NCBI GenBank assembly: GCA_010015805.1
Contig: ML978124.1
Coordinates: 1,984,001 to 2,048,000, forward strand
DNA from: Rhizodiscina lignyota
Lineage: Eukaryota
Reading direction: 5' to 3'
Length of the DNA: 64,000 nt
The notes under the pieces: generated by a model
What the model saw: only the letters and a program-made list of their open reading frames with translations
The model's database searches: none
Told to the model about the DNA's origin: nothing
Translations under genes and position numbers: made by a program
Shown: positions 8,741 through 62,956 of the stretch, one piece after another
Layout: each line of letters opens with the position of its first letter
Numbering within the stretch: position 1 is the stretch's first letter

Positions 8741-10154
8741 GTTGCACGGATCAAGGCCTTGTTGCAACTCAGCCAGCAGATCGCAACGAATACGAGAAGT
8801 CGCTGGAGCTCAGGCGTTCACATGCGAGAGACTGTGATAAATGAAGGCGCCATCAAACTCTTTAAGTGAAGTTGGAAATGATCAAATCTGAAGCCAATTG
8901 GAGGGAGACCTGCATGAAGTTTCCAGATCCGAAGACCGGAGGATCCGGTAGGTTAAATTAGTGGTGCAGAGAGGCAAGGCGCTGGCATGATCATTCACCT
9001 GTGATGGGGTGACTGAAAGCTCCAATCGCCGCTACCTCATGCAGGGGACCGCTCAACGTTGAAGCGCAAGCATCCAGCATCGCGGCAGCACCGTGAAGGC
9101 TTGGTCAATTGAGGAATTGGCATGTTTGCCTCCTATTAAAGATTAGATGGAGCTCGTGTCGGGAAAGAAACGCAATTCGTGATTGATGTCACTTGTGCTG
9201 GAGACGACGTTGAGTTCGGAGACCGTGCGCTTCCAAGGTTCCCAGAGTTCACTGCACATCACCTCAATGAGCATCAACATCAGAGCACAAATGTTTTGGT
9301 TGATGGAAGAGCAAAATCATCGCAATTCGCTATCTGATGGAGTCTTTGGGGGCACGTGTGGCTAATGAGTTTGTGGAAAGAGCATAGTACATACTTGGAA
9401 ACAGCGGAAAATTCACGCTATGTCCAGAGCACCTTCTCCCGAGTTCGCTGCACTCGCATCGCTTTCCTCAGAGATGAAGAGGATCAACTCAAGAGAGAGT
9501 GGCCTTGTCCAATCAATCAATTGTTGACGTTGATGATCTGAGGACTCGACGAAGTGCGACTTCCTCTGAGCTTGCGATCACATCACGGCGATGGGTTTTT
9601 GAGCGAGAGCAAAGGGGATATTTAGAGAAAGAGTTTCGGAAACCTCACATGTCGACTTGTTCTTTCGTCGATTAAAGCTGTGATTGGTAAGGAGCGGGCC
9701 TTCTGATTGGACTACGTGAGGCTCTGTTGTGGTTTGTTGCGCCTGCGCGACTTCTACCTTCTCACGATCTTGCCTCCATGCCCCTTATGCCTTCCTATTC
9801 TTCAAAGTCCTTGAAGAAGGCTTAGTGCCTTGGTGATGGAATCTGCCCGGCAATTGTATAAGTTCCCTGCCCTCGCAGTTTCAAACGATTCTTCTTTTCC
9901 TCAACATCAATCAAAGCGAACATTTCTCAGCAACAGCATCTCTCACCGCGAAGACATCTGGTCAGCCTCTCTTCACTCCACTCCTCTTCCATTGATATCT
10001 TTGCTAACATCTTTTGTCACAGATAACCTTGATCTTGCTCTTGCTTTTGCCTCTGCTTGGCTCTGCTCCTAGCATGTAAGTCTCATCACTCTTCTCAGTT
10101 CGACACATTGCTAACGTCTCCACAGCTTTCGCAGTTAGCTCAAACACCGCAACC

Positions 10155-11291
10155 ATGGTCAATCTCATCATCACTCTTGCCTCTCTGGCCGCGTTTGGCA
10201 TCACTTCCGTCACTGCCAACAAGGAAACGGTCAAGCTCAAGCTCGACCTCTACACCGGTGCCTTTTGCGACGGCCAGATGAGCCCAATGGAGAAGGAGAT
10301 CAAGGAAAACAAATGCGTCGATTCCAATCACCCGTTCCAGAGCTTCAAGTACAAGCTGCGTGATGATCACGTGTACAACCGCGACAAGAAGGAGTGCCGC
10401 GTCGAAGTCTACCAGAAGTCCGATTGCGACGGCATAATGTTCCTTGTGCCGAACTTCGATCCCCAAAATGACTTTGGCCCTTGCCAGCAGGATCTGGTGA
10501 CCCAGGCCCTCCAGTACCCCCAGAACAAGGATCTCGTCAACTTCTCCTCTTGGAAGCTCATCTGCGGGGAGAAGCCAAAGTCATCGTCAAAGCCTGTCAC
10601 CACTTCCTCGTCCTCCGTCGACCAGACTTTCACAGTCGTCCAAATCCACGAAACCAAGCAGCCTCTTGTTGCCCACGACTTGCCGGTCTCTGTCACTGCT
10701 ACTCACGTGTACCTCCCTGCCGAGACGTCGCACATCAACATTGGGCCTCAGATGACGACCCTCAGGCCCGCCGAAACGTTGGTCTCTGTCATGCAGGATC
10801 AGAGCAGGATCACTGAGAGCGCCACGACAACACTGTACAAAGAGGAGACAACAATGGTGTCCGAACAGATATCCTACGTCCGCCCGACAACGTCAATCAT
10901 CAGCCAGGCACCGGACACAACCATCGATGAGCACGTGGTATCCTCTGTGACTGTCGAGGCCGAAACCAGCACCGTCTCAGAGGACACTACCGTCGTCCAG
11001 CCAATCACCACTGTCGTCACCATGTCCGAATCCACGACAGTGTCTCCACAGTACACCATCGTCACCACAGCAGCAAGGCTCCACGCCCGTGACGTCACGC
11101 GCGGCCCTGTCTCTGCTTCCTTTGTAACAGAGATGGACAAATATGACATCACTGAGTTGGAGCAAGATCTGTCTTCCGCCTTCGCCGATGTCGTCGGCTT
11201 CACCGGAGACTTTGTTGAGGACTTGAACCGTGCCATTCAGGAGATCCAGGAGGACTTCGACGAGTTGGACGAGGCGTCGGCGTCCGACTAG
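10155..11291 (+). CDS. Secreted protein: signal peptide, 6-Cys domain, Thr/Ser/Val-rich stalk, acidic tail
   Basis: 378-aa ORF, good start context (GCAACCATGG), strong coding-like codon bias, hydrophobic N-terminus; two apparent 5'UTR introns (9961-10022, 10076-10125). Confidence 0.8.
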   Translation: MVNLIITLASLAAFGITSVTANKETVKLKLDLYTGAFCDGQMSPMEKEIKENKCVDSNHPFQSFKYKLRDDHVYNRDKKECRVEVYQKSDCDGIMFLVPNFDPQNDFGPCQQDLVTQALQYPQNKDLVNFSSWKLICGEKPKSSSKPVTTSSSSVDQTFTVVQIHETKQPLVAHDLPVSVTATHVYLPAETSHINIGPQMTTLRPAETLVSVMQDQSRITESATTTLYKEETTMVSEQISYVRPTTSIISQAPDTTIDEHVVSSVTVEAETSTVSEDTTVVQPITTVVTMSESTTVSPQYTIVTTAARLHARDVTRGPVSASFVTEMDKYDITELEQDLSSAFADVVGFTGDFVEDLNRAIQEIQEDFDELDEASASD

Positions 11292-11454
11292 TAGGTCAAT
11301 TTGCGGTGGTTGTCAGCGATGTCGTCCTTGATTCTCAGACAGGGTTGTCTCTTCCTCCGCTGACTGCGGACATTAACATGTGTAGCCTTTGCTTTGTGCT
11401 TTTGACTTTCGTCTGGTAGTTTCAATACACTTTTTCTTCACTTTACCAAGACCC

Positions 11455-12850
11455 ATCTGTACCTGCCTGCCTGCCTGCCTGTGTGACTAGTACATTTAGC
11501 TCCCGCACATAATCAAATCGAAGCTCAACCGTCATGCGCAAGCTGGGAGCTGAGCAACTTGGCTGAATTTAGGCAAAGTTGGGTTGATGTGTCCAATCCG
11601 CAAGAGGAGCTCCCCCAGATAACCGAATCGAAACTCAAGCTCCACGCGCAGACGTGAAGCTGAGCGAGACTCGAATGTACTTAGTCAGCTTGAGGTCGAG
11701 GGAGTTTCTCCATTCTGGCAGATCTCGGTCTATGTGTCCAAATTCCGAGTCGAGCTCCCGCGAAAACCCGAATGAAAGCATAGCTTCTACGCGCAGACGT
11801 GAAGTTAAGGGAGTGTACTTAGTCAAAGCAAAGCTGGGCGTTCATGCGAAAGCTTGATATCGAGGGAGTTCGCTGAATTCAGGCACAGCTCGGTCGATAT
11901 GTACAAGTCGTAAACTGAGCTCCCGCAGATAATCGAATAGAAGCTCAACTGCCACGCGCAAATAGGTGCTTTAACGAATACACTTAGAAGTCGAGCGTCC
12001 GCGAATGATCGAATTGAAGCCGGTACCTTAGTAAAGCGCCGTACGTAGCGCGAAGTCTCTCGAAGGTGCATAGAGGCAATAGGTTAATCTCTGCGCATGG
12101 TATGAGTGGGGTAAAAGAATGTAAATTCAGTAGAGAGGCTAATCTCTGCGTATAATGCGACTTGTCTCGAAGAAGCTGAACTGGGCAAAGAGGCCAATCA
12201 TAGCGTATAGTTCGATCTCGATTGAAGGAAGGTAAATGCGTAAATAGGCGACCCTCCGCGTAGAGTGCGAGCTCAGTGAAAAGAAATAGGCCAAGTAAGA
12301 CAAACAGCCTCGGGATATAATACAAGCTTTGTGAAGAAATCTAACTCTAAGTTAGAGTAATACCGTCTTTATCTGTACGAGCTGTAAATTGTATAGCCAT
12401 GTTGATTTAAAGCGATGCTCTACCTACTTGTGCAAGTTACAAGTTGCGAGTGTGTCTTTAACCAGGGCTATATTTGATTTGTCCGTGCGAGTTGTATGTT
12501 AGACGCCTGACTCCAATCCAACCGATGCTTGGTTGCCCGCGCAAGCTCAAAGTTGAACGCCTGCATTAAACCCAACCGATGCTTGCTCCACCGGTTCGAG
12601 TCCAATATTGACACACTATGCTCTTAGCGAACAATTGCAAGATCAGCCGATGCGAGCTCTAAGTTCCAAGCCCGCTCTCAATCAAACTGTTGTTGGACCT
12701 GAAGGTGTTGGGTGGAAGTTCGAAGCCTGCTCTCAATCGAGCCGCTGTTGGATCTGCCAGTGTTGGGGCGAGGTTGAAAGCCTGCCTTCAATCGAACCAT
12801 TGCTTGGCCTGCCTGTGTGAGCTGTAAGTTGCATGGCTGCTTCCAGTCAA
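11455..12850. repeat. Degenerate 55-nt-period tandem array, ~24 units
   Basis: tcaatc at 12678/12733/12788; agg(c/t)taatctctgcg-like blocks at 12081/12136/12191/12246; taatc(a/g)aatcgaagctcaac-like blocks at 11510/11620/11765/11930. Confidence 0.85.
11462..11481. repeat. (CCTG)5 microsatellite at the left edge of the 55-nt array
   Basis: cctgcctgcctgcctgcctg read directly. Confidence 0.85.
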
Positions 12851-13566
12851 TATGTTTGTTGTTCTAACCATCCGCAGGGAAATGCCTCGAGAATGACGAC
12901 TGCCCAGGTTTAAGACCGACAAAATCCATGGCTTCGGCGATATGGCTGTGAACAAATTTGGATATCGGCGCGAGCGGACCGCGTCTGTTTTCAGCTTCAC
13001 GCGGCAAGCGCGCGCTTCATCGTCCTTTTTCCTCAGAAATGCCGAAGAGCGAACGACGGCTGCGCAACGCGGCCGTCGATTGGAGAAAGCCACAAAATGC
13101 GAGTCACTCCTTAGGGCCACGCCGTCGTCATGACTGCTGCTTATGTTGCATACGACGCTCTCGAGGCTTCTGCGGCTGAGCCCAAGCTTTTTTCATTGGT
13201 AGATCTCTACGAGCCGTGCCTGGAGACAGGTTCGCGGTCTTGCGTTGCGGCGTTTGTCGTTCGAGTATCGCGGCAAGCGAAGATTGCTGCTGCCTTCGGT
13301 GTCGAAGTGACGACGAAGGTAGATGAGGTAGGGAGTATATAAGTTCGACGTCGGTCTCATATTGTAGATTCATCAGAACAACAAAAGAGCCTTCAGCTTC
13401 ACATCATTCGTCAGTTCGGAAGTAATCGACCGATTGCCTTGTCAGCTTCGTGTCTCATTCAAGTAAAAGATACATCTAAACGGCTAATTGCGATCGGAAT
13501 ATATATTTTCAGCCCTTTACAGAGCCTTTGTCTGTTCCTTTAAACCTCAATCTCCACTATTCAACA

Positions 13567-14787
13567 ATGGCGTCCCCGAAAATCGCGATAATTGGCGCTG
13601 GTCCGGCAGGTGTCACTCTTGCTCGCATTCTATTGCAAAACAACATAAAAGATATCACGATCTTCGAACAGGAAAAATCTCGCCACCATCGCACTCAAGG
13701 TGGCTCGCTCGACCTGCACCCGACGACTGGCCAGCTTGCAATCCAGGAAGCCGGCTTGTTCGATGAATTCCAAAAGTACGCCCGCTATGAGAGCGAAGAC
13801 TTCATCCTTGTGGACAAGACTGGCAAGCGCCACATCGAGATCCTTGACCAGGATACTGGGCGTCCGGAAATCGATCGAGAAAAGCTCCGAATGATTTTGC
13901 TGGACTCTGTCCCGGACAGCATCATCAGATGGGACACGAAAGTTAAGCGCGTGGAGGTCGGAACCCTTGAGCTTGCAGACGGGACGAATGAAACCGGATT
14001 CGACCTTATTGTTGGCGCAGATGGGGCGTGGTCGAAAGCGCGGGCCTTGCTGTCTCACGTAGGCCCATTCTACTCCGGCATCAGCGGCTACGAGATGATG
14101 TTCCGCGACGTGGACAAGAAGCACCCTGAAATCAGCAAGATGGTCGGCCGCGGTTCATTCTTTGCCCTTGGCGGCGATGGCCGCTGTTTGCTTGCGCAGC
14201 GACAAGGCGACGGCAGTTTCAAGCTCTTGACCGCAGCCAGCAAGGCCGAGAACTGGGTCTCTGATATGGGATACGATCCGGATGACACTGAGAACGTCAG
14301 GAAGATTCTACTCGAGGACTACAAAGACTGGGCTCCGGAACTGCGCAGGCTGATTGAGCTCGGCGACGATGACTTCTGGTATCGCCCGTTGTACATGCTC
14401 CCTGTGGGCATGGAGTGGCGCCACAAAGCCGGCGTGACCCTTATTGGCGATGCAGCGCATCTGATGACTCCATTCGCTGGAGAGGGCGTTAATAACGCAA
14501 TGGCCGACGCGCTGAGCTTAGCAAAATGCATCATCAAAAACCCAAGCGACCTTGGTGCAGCATCTCTGGAGTATGAGAAGGAGATGTTCCCCAGGGCTGA
14601 GGACACGATGGCGAGGACCTGGAGGAACCTGCAAGATCGGTTCATTCAGGAGGACTCGGCAGAGCGCGCAACGAAGATGATTCAGCGTATGATAGAGAGG
14701 AGAAAGAAGGCGTTGGCAGCTCAGGCTGCAGAGAAAGAGGCACAGAAGGAGCTGGTGACTTCTAAGGAGGTGATGGAGGCAAAATAG
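13567..14787 (+). CDS. FAD-dependent monooxygenase, Tet(X)-like group A flavoprotein, intronless
   Basis: IAIIGAGPAG, GGSLDLH, RPEIDREKLR, DLIVGADGAWS, LIGDAAHLMTPFAGEGVN; TATATAA near 13337. Confidence 0.9.
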   Translation: MASPKIAIIGAGPAGVTLARILLQNNIKDITIFEQEKSRHHRTQGGSLDLHPTTGQLAIQEAGLFDEFQKYARYESEDFILVDKTGKRHIEILDQDTGRPEIDREKLRMILLDSVPDSIIRWDTKVKRVEVGTLELADGTNETGFDLIVGADGAWSKARALLSHVGPFYSGISGYEMMFRDVDKKHPEISKMVGRGSFFALGGDGRCLLAQRQGDGSFKLLTAASKAENWVSDMGYDPDDTENVRKILLEDYKDWAPELRRLIELGDDDFWYRPLYMLPVGMEWRHKAGVTLIGDAAHLMTPFAGEGVNNAMADALSLAKCIIKNPSDLGAASLEYEKEMFPRAEDTMARTWRNLQDRFIQEDSAERATKMIQRMIERRKKALAAQAAEKEAQKELVTSKEVMEAK

Positions 14788-25097: not shown

Positions 25098-25313
25098 TAA
25101 AAACCAATGAAAATTTTTTCCAATGTTGAATATTATCAATGCAACTTAGGCAGTTGGCAACTTTCTAAGTCCGATGCAGCAGGGCAGGTCATTCGTTGTA
25201 ACTACCGTTGCATCTTCTGTTTATCCACCAAGGCACATCAAGTTGGGAGTTGCAATTGCACTCCCGTAGTTTCGGAGGAAATGTAGCCGCGATGCATCGA
25301 ATCAAAAGCGCCC

Positions 25314-25466
25314 AATTCGATCCTCGGTCAAGTAACACGTAACGATATAGGACTTAGTGTTTAAATAGAACTATTGTAGATGACTTGTATCTTAAATAAA
25401 GCTTCGAATTCGATCCTCGGTCAAGTAACACGTAACGATATACAATTAGGTGTTGAAAGAGAACTA
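25314..25466 (+). repeat. 93-nt-period direct duplication with exact 36-nt core
   Basis: aattcgatcctcggtcaagtaacacgtaacgatata at 25314-25349 and 25407-25442, then diverged similarity. Confidence 0.9.
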
Positions 25467-41766: not shown

Positions 41767-42907
41767 ACTATCTGAGTGCTAGTTTCTATTATGAAGGCCA
41801 ACGCATTTGGTGGTACTACGAAGGAGCTAGTTTCTTGTGAGCGAACAGTCGACAGAGCTACCCTGTTACAGTCGCCTTTAGTACTTCTAAGAAGCTTCTG
41901 CATATTGGTGAGTTTTCATCCGAGGCTGTTAGGGAGGAGCTTGCCAGGCCTGACTTAGAGGATTTGCTTCTCGTTATCGCGGAAAGGGGACGTCGCCGCG
42001 GGTCTCATACTGTTACGAGACGTGTAACTGCTTCGTAGACCCATCAGGCACCCCCTGTAACGGTGAATTTCCGGATAGAACTAACAGCCTCAGCTCTAAT
42101 GTATTTAAAAGCTCTGGTGTTGCAAGTATGACATGGCGCACACGAAACCCTTCCAGGCTCCTGCTGTAGAGAAGATCGCATTGCTTCGTCCGCTTTGTTT
42201 GCGTTGTTCGAAATCGAAGCGCATCGCGGCCATTGAGATGAAGAGCGGCACTTGAACAAATATTCACCTTCATCAACAGAGGCAGACGAATATCACCATT
42301 GCAAAGTGATGGAGATGGAGTATAAACAATCACACCAACCTGAAGTTCAGATTTAGGGATCGCAAAACACGACGGCCCAAATGGACATTGGCTACATATG
42401 GGGTGCGATGCATGGCCAAGCGTTAAAGGTCCTGGCCTTGGCCTTATTTATATTAGAATTCAAACGTACCCATTCGGCAGTCTGCCTGAGTTGCACTGTA
42501 TGTTAGAAAGGACGCGGAAAACAAGCTCTGTGGCGTCGTCGCAAAGTTTCGCTTTCGTCATGGCGTGGCTCGTATTTCATCCGAACGTTCGTTTACGGCC
42601 GATGCACAGTCGTGCTTGGTGGTGGAGGAAGGTCCACTACTCTGAATCCTGCCGCGGGGCGTTATGAACGGCCGAAGCCAATTTAGACGACACGAGATAA
42701 GTATGCAGGTATATTAATTACATTTCCTCGTCTGTTCGTGTTGTCAGAGCATTCAAGATCAATTTTCGAGCCCGTTTCGTTGAAGTCTATTCGAAGACAG
42801 CATTTGTCTCTAGAAAAGGATCACAACGACATCACTATAAATCCAGCGACTCACAGTTCACCTCATTCAACCCTTCTTAAAGGCCTAAACAAAATCAGAC
42901 TCAAAAA

Positions 42908-49802: not shown

Positions 49803-51335
49803 TGATCTGATTCAGTTTCTGTGGATGCTCTTCACTTCTCTGTACCTTCTTCACCTTTTTCTCTTCTTTGTTGCATACTTGGATTGTTTCTTGACTTTTG
49901 CAGACTGCGAAAATACCACGCTGCGAAGCGTCAATTCTCTGTTTTGCTTTTTGGGAACGCGGAAATGTACTTGGGTCTGGACCGGACTTGGCTTCGGGTG
50001 TGCTGGGACTCGCATCTTACTTTGATTGTAATTTTCCTTTCTTGTGTATGTGTTGTAGTATCTTGTCGATTTTGCCTTTTATCGGGCTGGGTTTAATACG
50101 CTCCTTACTCCACCCAGCCTTTTTCCTTTCTGCGGTTGTGGCTTTGGCTGGAGCTCAGGCTATTGTTTTTTGTTAGAAACACCGTAAGGCGTATGCTCAT
50201 GTGTTTGTACGGAAGACTGATACGGAGAGGAAGGAGAGAGGGCGCGCGAGCCGGGCAGAGGACAGGAGAGGCGAGAGCCGATATCATTCTCATCTTGATA
50301 CCCTCAATTTCACATCGCATCGGATGCTGGCAGCGCTGGGGGAAGGGAGTGTGCATCCGAAGAGTAAATGGATGGCAATTTACAGTCCTCACGGGGCTTT
50401 TTGCTCAGAGCTAGGAAGACTCAGCAGGAGTGTGGCGGGCCTGGAATATGGCCCGTCAGGAGACGTAATTGGATTTGAGAGCTGCGTCAAAAAGAGGAAA
50501 CGGAAAGATAGCAAACATAATAATAAAGGAATTCTCCACCAAGTTGTTCAACATTCTTCCATGAAGCTCGCACTATGTGCGGAGATTGACATATTCTCAA
50601 TCTACCTTCTTCCACCAAGCTGGGGTTGTGCGTGGAGCTTTGCTAAGTTGCCCAGCTCACCTTCTCCTGTCCGACTTGCGCTGTACGTACACGTTGGCCT
50701 ACTTACTTGCTTGCTCTTCTTCTACGGAACGATTACTGTGCGTGAAAGTTGGCCTATTTTCTCAGTTCACTGTCTTTTAGAGGGCTTGCAAAGTGCGGAG
50801 AGATTAGCCGATTGAGCCGGGTACCAGCTTTCTTCCTTTCGACTGGACGATGATTAACACAGAGTTCTATCTGATATACTATCAAATAACGGCCGATAGC
50901 TGTTGTAACATCTGTAACCAGAGGAAGCGCTCGAGGTGACATTGGAATGCACTGCCTGGTCCGGCAGTATCGTATTTTTGGTTTTATCTTTTATTTAGTA
51001 CAGTGATAGTAGTAATCATCGTCGTCAGTTTTGAGATGGCCGTTACCATTATCGAGTGATGGAGTTGAAGTGCATCGTCGAGTTCTGTTATTTTACTTAT
51101 CATCTGGAGTCGAAGCTCCCGTCTCCTTTTGCCGAATTTCATCATGGATGCCCCGGCCCCCGCGGTCGGCCATCGAGCCGAGACGTCGGTGATACATAGA
51201 CGCGAGCGACGAGACAGAATACTCAGAGCTTTTATCTTACATACAAGTGAATACCAATTGGTCCCCAATATCATATTCGCGCTTTCGCTTTGCATATTTC
51301 GCTCCTGTACACTATTCACGGGCATTTAAAAGAGC

Positions 51336-61559: not shown

Positions 61560-62956
61560 ACTACATTGGAATAGCTACTGCGACAGCGGTAGCATGGCTT
61601 TGAACTTATTTAGGCGGCGCGCGGCTTCGAAGGTTTTGAAGCTTTGCTTGCTTGCTTACAAACAAACGGACTTCTGGTTTTTGCTTGGACGGACATCGGC
61701 AGCAAGCTAGAGTGTCCTGTCACTCATACTCTTGCTCATGGCGATTACAACAAGGTTTGTCGCCGGGCTTTTTCTACTTCTCGCCCTTTTCGGTGGCGAT
61801 CTCTCAGTGTTCAAGCTAATGGAGCAAAGGTTCCATGTAGCAGACTGGCATCTTATATCTCGAGCTCACCCGGCATGGAAGAACAACTGTGTCGGAGGCT
61901 ATGGCAATGCAGTAGCAATGGCTAGAAAGTTTTCTGGAAGGAATCAGATTGTGGAGGAAGGTGAAAGAGCGTCGAAGGCAGCAGCGAGTTATCAGAGGTT
62001 TCAGCGAGACCTCTTTACCGAGTTCTCTTTTGTGGTTGTGGGCTGTGTGGATCGGTTGATACCAATACATACTCCAGCTGGCTGAATGGCAATGGAGAGC
62101 TGCCTGACTAGGTTTAGGGGATGCAAAATGGAAATTGACCAAGTGCCTATCTAACAATGCGTTTCCTTTTGCCGAGGTGATACTAACGCTCATATATCTG
62201 TCTGCTTCTATCACGCTCTTCTACGCGTTTCGCTTAGTATTTGGAGATGTCTCCAGCGCTTGTACTAACGTAACGCTCACATGGCGGGATGTAGCTGTCC
62301 ATACTGTTCACACGTATCTTCTTTCCTTGTTGGAGCTGTCCCAGCATGTGTTTCTCTTTGTCTCTTCTTAGCCTCTTTACGCTGCTCCTGATGCATTCAT
62401 GTCCTGCACGAAAGAGTATGGCGCTCAACATACTCGACCAAGGGTGACAAAATAACTGGGCACCGCAAAGGATATAACGCCTCAATGTGAGCAACTCTCG
62501 CACTTCAAGGTCAACGAAACTGTCCCTGAAAGCTTGGTTCTAGACTCTCCAGGGTATATACGACGATGACAGACCTTCGAAGAACTTGTACGCGCTCTTC
62601 GTCATAGGGCCTATCGATTATAACTATGCGGTGTCTTGAATGTTTGGGGATGCAAGGTTTTGTCGGCTCACAAATGATGGTCTACCATCATTGGAATAGG
62701 CACGGAATAGATGAGTTTCATTTCTACTCCGAGCGACGAACGCCTACTGACTTATCCCAGGTTTTTGTCCTTATCGTCCCCAAACAAAGTATCGCCGCTT
62801 CCAGACTTTGCTTCTGAACCACCTGAGAAGCTCCTTCATCCTGCCAATCCTTCGTCTTGAGGAGTAGTGTCGCTTTCCTTCGCAACCTCAGGCCTTCCAC
62901 CACAGCCCTTTCCCAGCTGTAAGGCGATCTTACGCTGGTGTAGCCTCACTTGGCGT

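What the first reader, a model, noticed from the sequence alone, without database searches (positions are those of the whole stretch)
11455..12850. Cryptic ~1.4 kb array of length-locked but sequence-diverged 55-nt units
Seen: a TRYRAGYT-like anchor recurs at 12101, 12156, 12211, 12266, 12321, 12376, 12431, 12486, 12540, 12595, 12651, 12706, 12761 and 12816 (55-nt phase held to within 1 nt over 14 units). Left-hand units start at 11510, 11565, 11620, 11710, 11765, 11820, 11875 and 11930 and align to the right-hand units (taatcaaatcgaagctcaaccgtcatgcgcaagctg vs caatcgaaccattgcttggcctgcctgtgtgagctg). No two units are identical and sequence drifts along the array, yet indels are rare. 55 is not a multiple of 3 and no long ORF spans it. 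Inference: spacing rather than sequence seems constrained, as for a phased protein-binding or chromatin array, a precursor of fixed-length small RNAs, or the internal minisatellite of an old mobile element. This is the best candidate for an undescribed element here; no effector gene is identifiable.
Basis: partly seen in the sequence, partly recalled or inferred. Interest (0 to 1): 0.72.

Follow-up and report, generated by a model that had tools for sequence, protein, structure and literature searches.

The report
Fungal transposon built from 55-base blocks
This stretch is a worn-out leftover of a fungal jumping-DNA family whose copies are chains of 55-base blocks; it probably does nothing today, but the family gains, loses and swaps DNA almost only in whole multiples of 55 bases, which is unusual and not yet explained.

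Summary
The 55-nt period is real (z 16). The array is one of 35 dispersed, non-coding loci (167 units) in a fungal genome labelled Rhizodiscina lignyota. It is a mosaic: A/B/C units, a type II block and a locally expanded type III block. Such units join in register to the arms of an old 235-bp element with 27-bp inverted ends and a 5-bp target duplication signal, a MITE. The focal array itself has no MITE arms. Spacing is no better kept than in decaying MITE copies (81% vs 72-79% exact), and there is no ORF, Rfam match or covariation, so selection on spacing and an RNA role are unsupported. The odd part: 46 of 57 rearrangement offsets in the MITE lie within 3 nt of a multiple of 55, although its blocks show no significant likeness to each other. 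A genome-wide 55-bp step is hinted (7 of 13 unbiased duplications) but not reproduced (0 of 5, 0 of 1). The scan noted the MITE and another 55-bp array separately before, unlinked.

The parts
11462..11481 (+). (CCTG)5 microsatellite at the left edge; a local slippage of the end of the preceding, decayed unit (not expanded in the C1 and C3 loci that share this start)
11482..11646 (+). three 55-nt units, types A, B, A; the first unit is shared with the starts of the arrays on C1 (L003) and C3 (L004)
   Evidence: leave-own-locus-out profile scores 49, 51, 42 bits; best score elsewhere on this strand of the window 12.5
11647..11736 (+). two damaged units (C then B) with a net loss of 20 nt: first phase break
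   Evidence: B remnant 9 bits at 11682
11737..11956 (+). four units A, C, B, A; same order as the C8 array (L002)
   Evidence: 38, 52, 45, 56 bits; 77% identity to C8 over 131 nt
11957..12045 (+). broken zone with an out-of-phase A unit at 11978: second and third phase breaks
   Evidence: 25 bits; spacings 76 and 123
12046..12320 (+). type II block, five units in exact 55 phase (four score 20-39 bits; the first is weak)
12321..12485 (+). transition: one hybrid unit and two B-like units; unit 12376 is 78% identical to a unit of the co-linear C6 locus L067
12486..12870 (+). type III block, seven unit lengths (the unit at 12595 is degenerate); the six scored units have their nearest neighbours inside the array, so a local expansion
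   Evidence: (3 pattern matches in the genome, all here)
12824..12877 (+). 54-nt intron-like stretch (GTAAGT ... CTAAC ... CAG) overlapping the last unit; splicing untested
   Evidence: sequence directly
50571..50790 (-). second array of the family in this window: four type II units
62440..62647 (-). near-complete copy of the 235-bp TIR element (model positions 28-235 of 238)
   Evidence: 119 bits, E 1e-35
10155..11291 (+). upstream flanking ORF, 378 aa, no Pfam match (context, not part of the element)
13569..14787 (+). downstream flanking gene, FAD-dependent monooxygenase (context, not part of the element)
   Evidence: PF01494 E 1e-20

Best explanation
The array is a decayed, non-coding remnant of an old family of non-autonomous DNA transposons whose members are chains of 55-bp blocks. 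SHOWN: the block types are dispersed; the commonest member is a 235-bp MITE (27-bp inverted ends, 5-bp target duplication signal); A/B/C and type II blocks join its arms in register; blocks were duplicated and deleted in whole multiples of 55; copies have since decayed by ordinary substitutions and small indels. INFERRED: the family began as a 55-bp tandem repeat whose copies diverged almost beyond recognition; slippage or unequal exchange in register, seeded by short surviving likenesses, made ordered cassettes; a cut-and-paste transposase, not identified, spread them. The focal array joins a left cassette (as on C1, C3, C8) to a right cassette (as on C6), then expanded its last block locally and lost or never had the arms. 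The length lock is inherited from that in-register history, not kept by selection now.
For: Dispersal: pattern matches 21, 4, 30, 3 against 0 controls each; 35 loci, 167 units. Mosaic: 13 of the first 14 scored units are closer to a unit elsewhere than to any neighbour (1 tie), the last 6 are closer inside. MITE: 42 and 44 pattern matches vs 0 controls; 5-bp flank identity 0.47 vs 0.29 permuted in 23 anchored copies, p 0.0005, other lengths 2-10 not significant. Link: 13 of 34 other array loci hold a MITE piece within 1.5 kb, about 1 expected; 13 of 20 block-to-arm joins within 5 nt of one phase. Register: 46 of 57 offsets within 3 nt of 55n (after dropping 4 counted twice); at least 8 junction classes, several recurring at distant loci. 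Vestige: the longest exact internal word of the MITE consensus (8 nt) lies at lag 110. Neutral decay.
Against: The focal array has no detectable MITE arm or target duplication, so its membership rests on shared blocks. The MITE consensus has no significant 55-nt autocorrelation (lag 110 z 1.7) and its four blocks are not significantly alike to each other, apart from the inverted ends, or to A/B/C/II (z at most about 3), so common descent from one repeat is inferred, not shown. Junctions cluster near phase 52 (R 0.62), away from the best surviving likeness (phase 28-35). One 165-nt repeat includes 15 nt from outside the element (L173). Only 1 of 23 target duplications is perfect. No transposase gene was linked to the ends. 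'Closer elsewhere' is favoured by 147 outside units against 19 inside.
Confidence: 0.62

Rival explanations
1. A ruler mechanism: in this lineage some replication, repair or element-encoded process duplicates and deletes DNA in steps of 55 bp regardless of sequence; the arrays and the MITE are only its most visible products.
For: In unbiased stretches, non-family, non-coding duplications fall within 2 nt of 55n in 8 of 16, 7 of 11 and 7 of 13 (about 10% expected; overlapping data, different filters). Two of them (L136, L150) have no second copy by the own-genome DNA search. At least four sequence groups without significant profile likeness share the 55 length. L173 repeats element end plus 15 nt of flank at exactly 165. 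Other fungi: 1 of 11.
Against: Not reproduced in the held-out 120 kb (0 of 1 non-coding, 0 of 3 in all) nor in 67 kb of masked flanks (0 of 5). Several unbiased hits look like distant family members (L161 carries an A-like motif, L169 is itself dispersed, L165 scores z 3-4 to type III). L136's second spacing is about 104. With the ORF filter other fungi gave 3 of 12, not significantly different at these numbers. The own-genome DNA search misses old copies (4 places for the focal array). Recurring junctions can be inherited.
Confidence: 0.18
2. The blocks were spread by rolling-circle transposition (Helentron/HINE-like central repeats); the TIR element merely captured some of them.
For: Head-to-tail clusters in one orientation; many arrays lack MITE arms (21 of 34); HINEs carry dispersed central repeats and microsatellites (PMC4067079, PMC7492417, passages); a (CCTG)5 sits at the left edge.
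Against: The common member has terminal, not subterminal, inverted repeats and a 5-bp duplication signal with no T-rich flanks, whereas HINEs make no target modification and sit in T runs (PMC4067079, passages). No shared 3' stem-loop end was seen in masked all-against-all comparison. The microsatellite is private to this locus.
Confidence: 0.1
3. The array is a functional phased platform (protein binding or nucleosome phasing; 165 = 3 x 55) kept by selection on spacing.
For: Nine or more block types keep one length, types I and II through offsetting internal gaps; arrays are mostly outside long ORFs (22 of 32); 165 is near fungal nucleosome repeat lengths (recalled).
Against: Spacing is no more exact than in decaying MITE copies; three phase breaks in this array; no preferred orientation to neighbouring ORFs; units are 63-71% identical to their type consensus.
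Confidence: 0.06
4. The units are RNA modules: hairpin precursors of fixed-length small RNAs, or intron plus micro-exon repeats.
For: The type I consensus has short inverted arms; the last unit overlaps a canonical-looking 54-nt intron.
Against: No pair of the proposed stem covaries beyond within-type shuffles; mean fold z -0.08 and -0.32 for the two strands in 131 units; no Rfam match at E up to 1; GT at the donor-like place in only 19 of 64 A units and 13 of 36 type II units, AG at the acceptor-like place in 14 of 36.
Confidence: 0.04

Closest known systems
Tandem-repeat-containing MITEs: DTC84 of the clam Donax trunculus and the pearl family (PMC3879986; abstract and Discussion read)
   Same: Non-autonomous element whose flanks act as a cassette for a variable number of ordered core-repeat variants; whole repeats gained and lost; short arrays dispersed through the genome.
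   Different: Core here is 55 bp, not about 160; at least nine block types, many without significant likeness; terminal 27-bp repeats and a 5-bp duplication signal instead of AA; no shared microsatellite module; fungal host; many arrays have no arms.
HINE / DINE-1 non-autonomous Helentrons (PMC4067079, PMC7492417; passages)
   Same: Dispersed short satellite-like arrays carried by a mobile element; a narrow range of monomer length across clusters; sometimes two repeat types in consecutive order.
   Different: HINEs have subterminal repeats, a 3' stem-loop, T-rich targets and no target duplication; monomers 140-180 bp vary freely within that range and are not locked to one step.
Fungal MITEs such as mimp of Fusarium oxysporum (name from earlier scan notes and recall; not read here)
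   Same: About 220-240 bp, about 27-bp terminal inverted repeats, no coding capacity, intergenic.
   Different: mimp makes a TA duplication (recalled); no block structure known to me.
Microhomology-mediated tandem duplication (PMC13167724; passages)
   Same: Neutral local duplications seeded by short likenesses, depleted from coding DNA.
   Different: The passages seen report mostly short units and no periodic length spectrum (term 'periodic' 0 times).
DNA transposons with 5-bp target duplications: hAT5, some CMCT lineages (PMC12730594; passages)
   Same: Target duplication length.
   Different: CMCT ends are CA..TG; here the ends begin CTCGAG; hAT5 is placed among animal hATs; no transposase link shown.

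Membership tests
MITE (235-bp element of this family) | terminal inverted repeats | tested here: met
   about 27 bp at both ends; 44 pattern matches vs 0 controls
MITE (235-bp element of this family) | target site duplication | tested here: met
   5-bp flank identity 0.47 vs 0.29 permuted, p 0.0005, 23 copies; 1 perfect, 2 with one mismatch; 4 of 28 within one mismatch vs 0.9 with looser ends
MITE (235-bp element of this family) | short, uniform length, non-coding, many copies | tested here: met
   223-251 bp in 28 copies; 5 of 52 unbiased 10-kb stretches hold a piece, roughly 300 in the genome
MITE (235-bp element of this family) | autonomous partner sharing the ends | tested here: inconclusive
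   four broken hAT-domain relics exist, none tied to the ends; other transposase families not searched
MITE (the focal array as an intact copy) | array bounded by the inverted ends and a target duplication | tested here: not met
   no profile match at 10001-14000; only match in the window is 62440-62647
Tandem-repeat-containing MITE (DTC84/pearl-like) | ordered core repeats between element flanks, varying by whole units | tested here: met
   blocks between both arms in L020 and L042, against one arm in L003, L015, L019, L040, L060, L093, L101, L115, L171; order shared between this array and L067, L002
Tandem-repeat-containing MITE (DTC84/pearl-like) | AA target duplication and adjoining microsatellite module | tested here: not met
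   2-bp test not significant; (CCTG)5 only at this locus
HINE / Helentron | no target modification, T-rich flanks | tested here: not met
   5-bp signal, flanks not T-rich
HINE / Helentron | subterminal inverted repeats and 3' stem-loop | tested here: inconclusive
   likeness stops at the inverted repeats in most copies; L093 and L115 share further 3' sequence with a small hairpin
HINE / Helentron | Rep/helicase partner | not tested
Structured or small RNA array | covarying stems or a known RNA family | tested here: not met
Structured or small RNA array | expression and phased processing | not testable with these tools
   no RNA holder listed
RIP-mutated repeat | strong excess of transitions, loss of CpA/TpG | tested here: not met
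   transitions/transversions 1.1-1.3; (CA+TG)/(AC+GT) 1.33 vs 1.25 in whole loci; TA/AT raised, 1.01 vs 0.72
Classical satellite DNA | long homogenised arrays | tested here: not met
   1-20 scored units per locus, neighbours 50% identical

The most novel reading that the evidence does not exclude
This fungal lineage has, or had, a 55-bp ruler: a process, possibly encoded by the element's own machinery, that duplicates, deletes and splices DNA in steps of 55 bp at phase-fixed points without needing homology, acting on the MITE, on several unrelated arrays and on unique DNA. No such quantised mutation process turned up in my nine literature searches.
Probability: 0.18. Interest if true: 0.8.

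Novelty: new variant of a known kind. Interest (0 to 1): 0.42.

Why it matters
As it stands it ties three things the scan saw separately (55-bp arrays, a 232-235-bp MITE, and this array) into one family, and gives a fungal case of a transposon acting as a cassette for tandem repeats, a route to satellites described mostly in animals. It also shows that 'length-locked but diverged' need not mean selection: a neutral yardstick from the same genome gives the same exactness. If the 55-bp step proves independent of homology, it would be a mutation process with a fixed ruler, directly testable with a second strain and a whole-genome length spectrum.

Tried and rejected
Coding origin, including a three-frame 165-nt repeat: 11-35 stops per frame across three arrays; unit order is not three-periodic. 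Hairpin RNA. Intron plus micro-exon array: splice letters not conserved. RIP as the source of substitutions without indels. Helitron 3' end at the CTAG of the first unit: likeness runs on past it. MITE interior as four visibly homologous units: not significant. Local, recent origin of the MITE duplications: neighbours 0.64 vs family 0.61, only 6 of 42 above the 95th percentile, 27 of 42 above the mean, so most are as old as the family and not independent events per locus. Relatives: one exact motif scan of metagenome contigs found 0; no family match in 80 loci of other fungi, all around one gene; no sister genome is held. Two covariance models were built and not used. A by-eye reverse-transcriptase-like frame beside the C8 array had no Pfam match. 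Literature: nine full-text searches found no description of this family or of 55-bp-stepped rearrangement; the library lacks most subscription papers and Repbase, and no supplements were opened.

Full report
Setting. The window is G000:C4:1984001-2048000 of a 33.4-Mb fungal assembly. A protein identical to the gene after the array is labelled Rhizodiscina lignyota. The array lies between an ORF without Pfam match (10155-11291) and an FAD monooxygenase.

The observation. The 55-nt period is real: z 16.0 at lag 55, 11.0 at 110, 8.8 at 165, against a maximum of 4.1 in 200 shuffles. No frame is open and Rfam gives nothing at E up to 1.

It is a family. A DNA search found four places. Short patterns found far more: 21, 4, 30 and 3 matches against 0 for each reversed control. 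Keeping one locus per place gave 35 loci with 167 units of at least 12 bits, 3 of the loci with a single unit. One further array lies in this window (50571-50790, minus strand). Units sort into types A (64), B (30), C (25), III (12) and II (36), each 63-71% identical to its own consensus; neighbours are 50% identical on average (86 pairs). A, B, C and III are clearly related (profile z 10-26); type II is not, on the same strand, except through the long C12 array, which scores z 15 to II and 5 to B. Types I and II sit in one phase where they meet.

The focal array is a mosaic. With profiles built without this locus, it reads A B A (C B damaged) A C B A, a broken zone, five type II lengths, a hybrid, two B-like units and a type III block. 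Of the first 14 scored units, 13 are closer to a unit elsewhere than to any unit inside and one ties; the last 6 are closer inside. The comparison favours 'elsewhere' by numbers (147 vs 19 units), but gaps such as 0.78 vs 0.55 are large. The left part follows the C8, C1 and C3 arrays; the right part is co-linear with a locus on C6 (L067). The type III pattern matches only here (3 matches). So cassettes were joined and the last block then grew locally. This is not gradual drift along one array.

The vehicle. With units masked, several loci still shared flanks. These belong to a 235-bp element with inverted ends of about 27 bp: 42 matches to an inner motif and 44 to the end motif, 0 controls. 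In 23 copies with both ends anchored, the 5 bases on either side agree at 0.47 against 0.29 in permutations (p 0.0005); lengths 2-4 and 6-10 do not. Only 1 of 23 is perfect, as expected for copies 25% diverged from consensus. It is an old MITE. Five of 52 unbiased 10-kb stretches hold a piece, roughly 300 in the genome. Thirteen of the 34 other array loci carry a piece within 1.5 kb, about 1 expected; 9 within 130 nt on the same strand; 13 of 20 block-to-arm joins are within 5 nt of one phase (the reference phase was taken from the first chimeras seen, and several joins may be one inherited subfamily). The focal array itself has no arm, so it is filed with the family by its blocks, not as an intact MITE. 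Four broken hAT-domain relics exist in the genome; none is tied to these ends.

Is spacing under selection? Measured the same way, exact-55 spacing is 87 of 107 in arrays and 46 of 58, 42 of 57 and 44 of 61 between 55-nt slices of 28 decaying MITE copies; the least favourable comparison gives p 0.18. So small indels are not purged in the arrays more than in the MITE. RIP does not explain the substitutions: transitions/transversions 1.1-1.3, CA+TG not depleted, though TA/AT is raised. The short inverted arms of type I do not covary and units fold no better than shuffles. Splice-like letters are not conserved.

What stays odd. Neighbouring MITE fragments are offset by multiples of 55: 32 of 42 within 3 nt (5.3 expected), 50 of 61 with more loci, or 46 of 57 after dropping four junctions counted twice (L075 and L185 overlap). 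The steps are +55, +110, +165, -55, 220, 275, 330. Of 37 abutting junctions 34 are in phase; they fall into at least 8 classes, several recurring at distant loci, and cluster near phase 52 (R 0.62). Neighbours are barely more alike than any two copies (0.64 vs 0.61), so most events are as old as the family and the classes, not the junctions, are the independent events. Yet the consensus has no significant 55-nt autocorrelation and its blocks show no significant likeness to one another or to the array types. The one vestige is that its longest exact internal word, 8 nt, lies at lag 110. One 165-nt repeat takes in 15 nt from outside the element (L173), and one nine-unit 55-nt array is made from a single MITE slice (L187).

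Genome-wide step? In stretches picked by round coordinates, non-family duplications of 40 nt or more fall within 2 nt of 55n in 8 of 16 (464 kb), 7 of 11 without an open frame (584 kb) and 7 of 13 outside long ORFs (two from one region); about 10% is expected; shuffled controls gave no events. Two are single-copy by a search that misses old copies. Against: the held-out 120 kb gave 0 of 3 (0 of 1 non-coding), masked flanks 0 of 5, and several hits look like distant family members. Other fungi gave 1 of 11 (61 clusters, 569 kb) and 3 of 12 with another filter on 31 of the 80 loci; all lie around one gene. This is a lead, not a result.

How it most likely works. An ancient 55-bp repeat diverged into blocks inside a non-autonomous transposon; in-register slippage or exchange added, removed and reordered whole blocks; transposition spread the cassettes; copies then decayed. 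Dispersal, ends, target duplication, register and decay are shown. Common ancestry of all blocks, the exchange mechanism and the transposase are inferred. I put this at 0.62, a sequence-independent ruler at 0.18, rolling-circle spread at 0.10, a selected phased platform at 0.06 and RNA modules at 0.04.

Known relatives. It works like the tandem-repeat-containing MITE DTC84 (PMC3879986; abstract and Discussion) and resembles HINE-borne arrays (PMC4067079, PMC7492417; passages), but fails the HINE target test and the AA test. Microhomology-mediated duplication (PMC13167724; passages) offers the step mechanism but no periodic lengths in what I saw. Neurospora mutation data show mostly short insertions (10.1101/2022.03.13.484164; passages). 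Five-bp duplications are known for hAT5 and some CMCT lineages (PMC12730594; passages). Nine searches found no account of this family (listings only). Earlier scan notes describe a 1445-nt 55-bp array and a 232-bp MITE in this genome separately; I did not confirm their coordinates.

Verdict. Real, non-coding, most likely inert; a new variant of a known kind, with one unexplained and testable feature. Interest 0.42.

Noticed in passing
window 62440-62647 (-): Near-complete copy of the 235-bp TIR element.
   Followed up: yes
window 50571-50790 (-): Second 55-nt array, four type II units.
   Followed up: yes
window 12824-12877 (+): Canonical-looking 54-nt intron overlapping the last unit; no ORF attached; splicing untested.
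   Followed up: partly
window 25170-25466: Non-coding tandem duplication with a 93-nt period, 77% identity; not a multiple of 55.
   Followed up: partly
window 41876-42006: Copy of another dispersed repeat, also seen duplicated at 165 nt in L154 and next to several MITE copies (L069, L100, L107, L111, L121/L122).
   Followed up: partly
L121 1501-3026 and L122 (G000:C3:2836219-2838443): Two same-strand MITE copies about 1.98 kb apart (near 36 x 55) enclose a 435-codon open frame with a GIY-YIG domain (E 6e-5): a possible composite element.
   Followed up: partly
L173 (G000:C10:218300-220300) 458-1179: Four-copy 165-nt repeat made of the MITE's right two thirds plus 15 nt from outside the element.
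   Followed up: yes
L187 (G000:C14:256400-258200): About nine 55-nt units made from one slice of the MITE: a minisatellite born from a transposon.
   Followed up: yes
   Followed up: partly
L169 1397-1640 and L123 1583-1814: A separate dispersed 55-nt array family with no profile likeness to the types here.
   Followed up: partly
L093 and L115, after the right inverted end: Shared sequence with a small hairpin runs on beyond the element end.
   Followed up: no
G000:C2:577526 and 595247; C18:70679; C28:747: Four broken hAT dimerisation-domain relics, the two on C2 in opposite orientation 17.5 kb apart.
   Followed up: no
L002 about 2040-2250: Frame that looked by eye like a decayed retroelement reverse transcriptase beside the C8 array; no Pfam match.
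   Followed up: partly
L048 about 2146-2618: Young inverted repeat, 96% over 106 nt.
   Followed up: no
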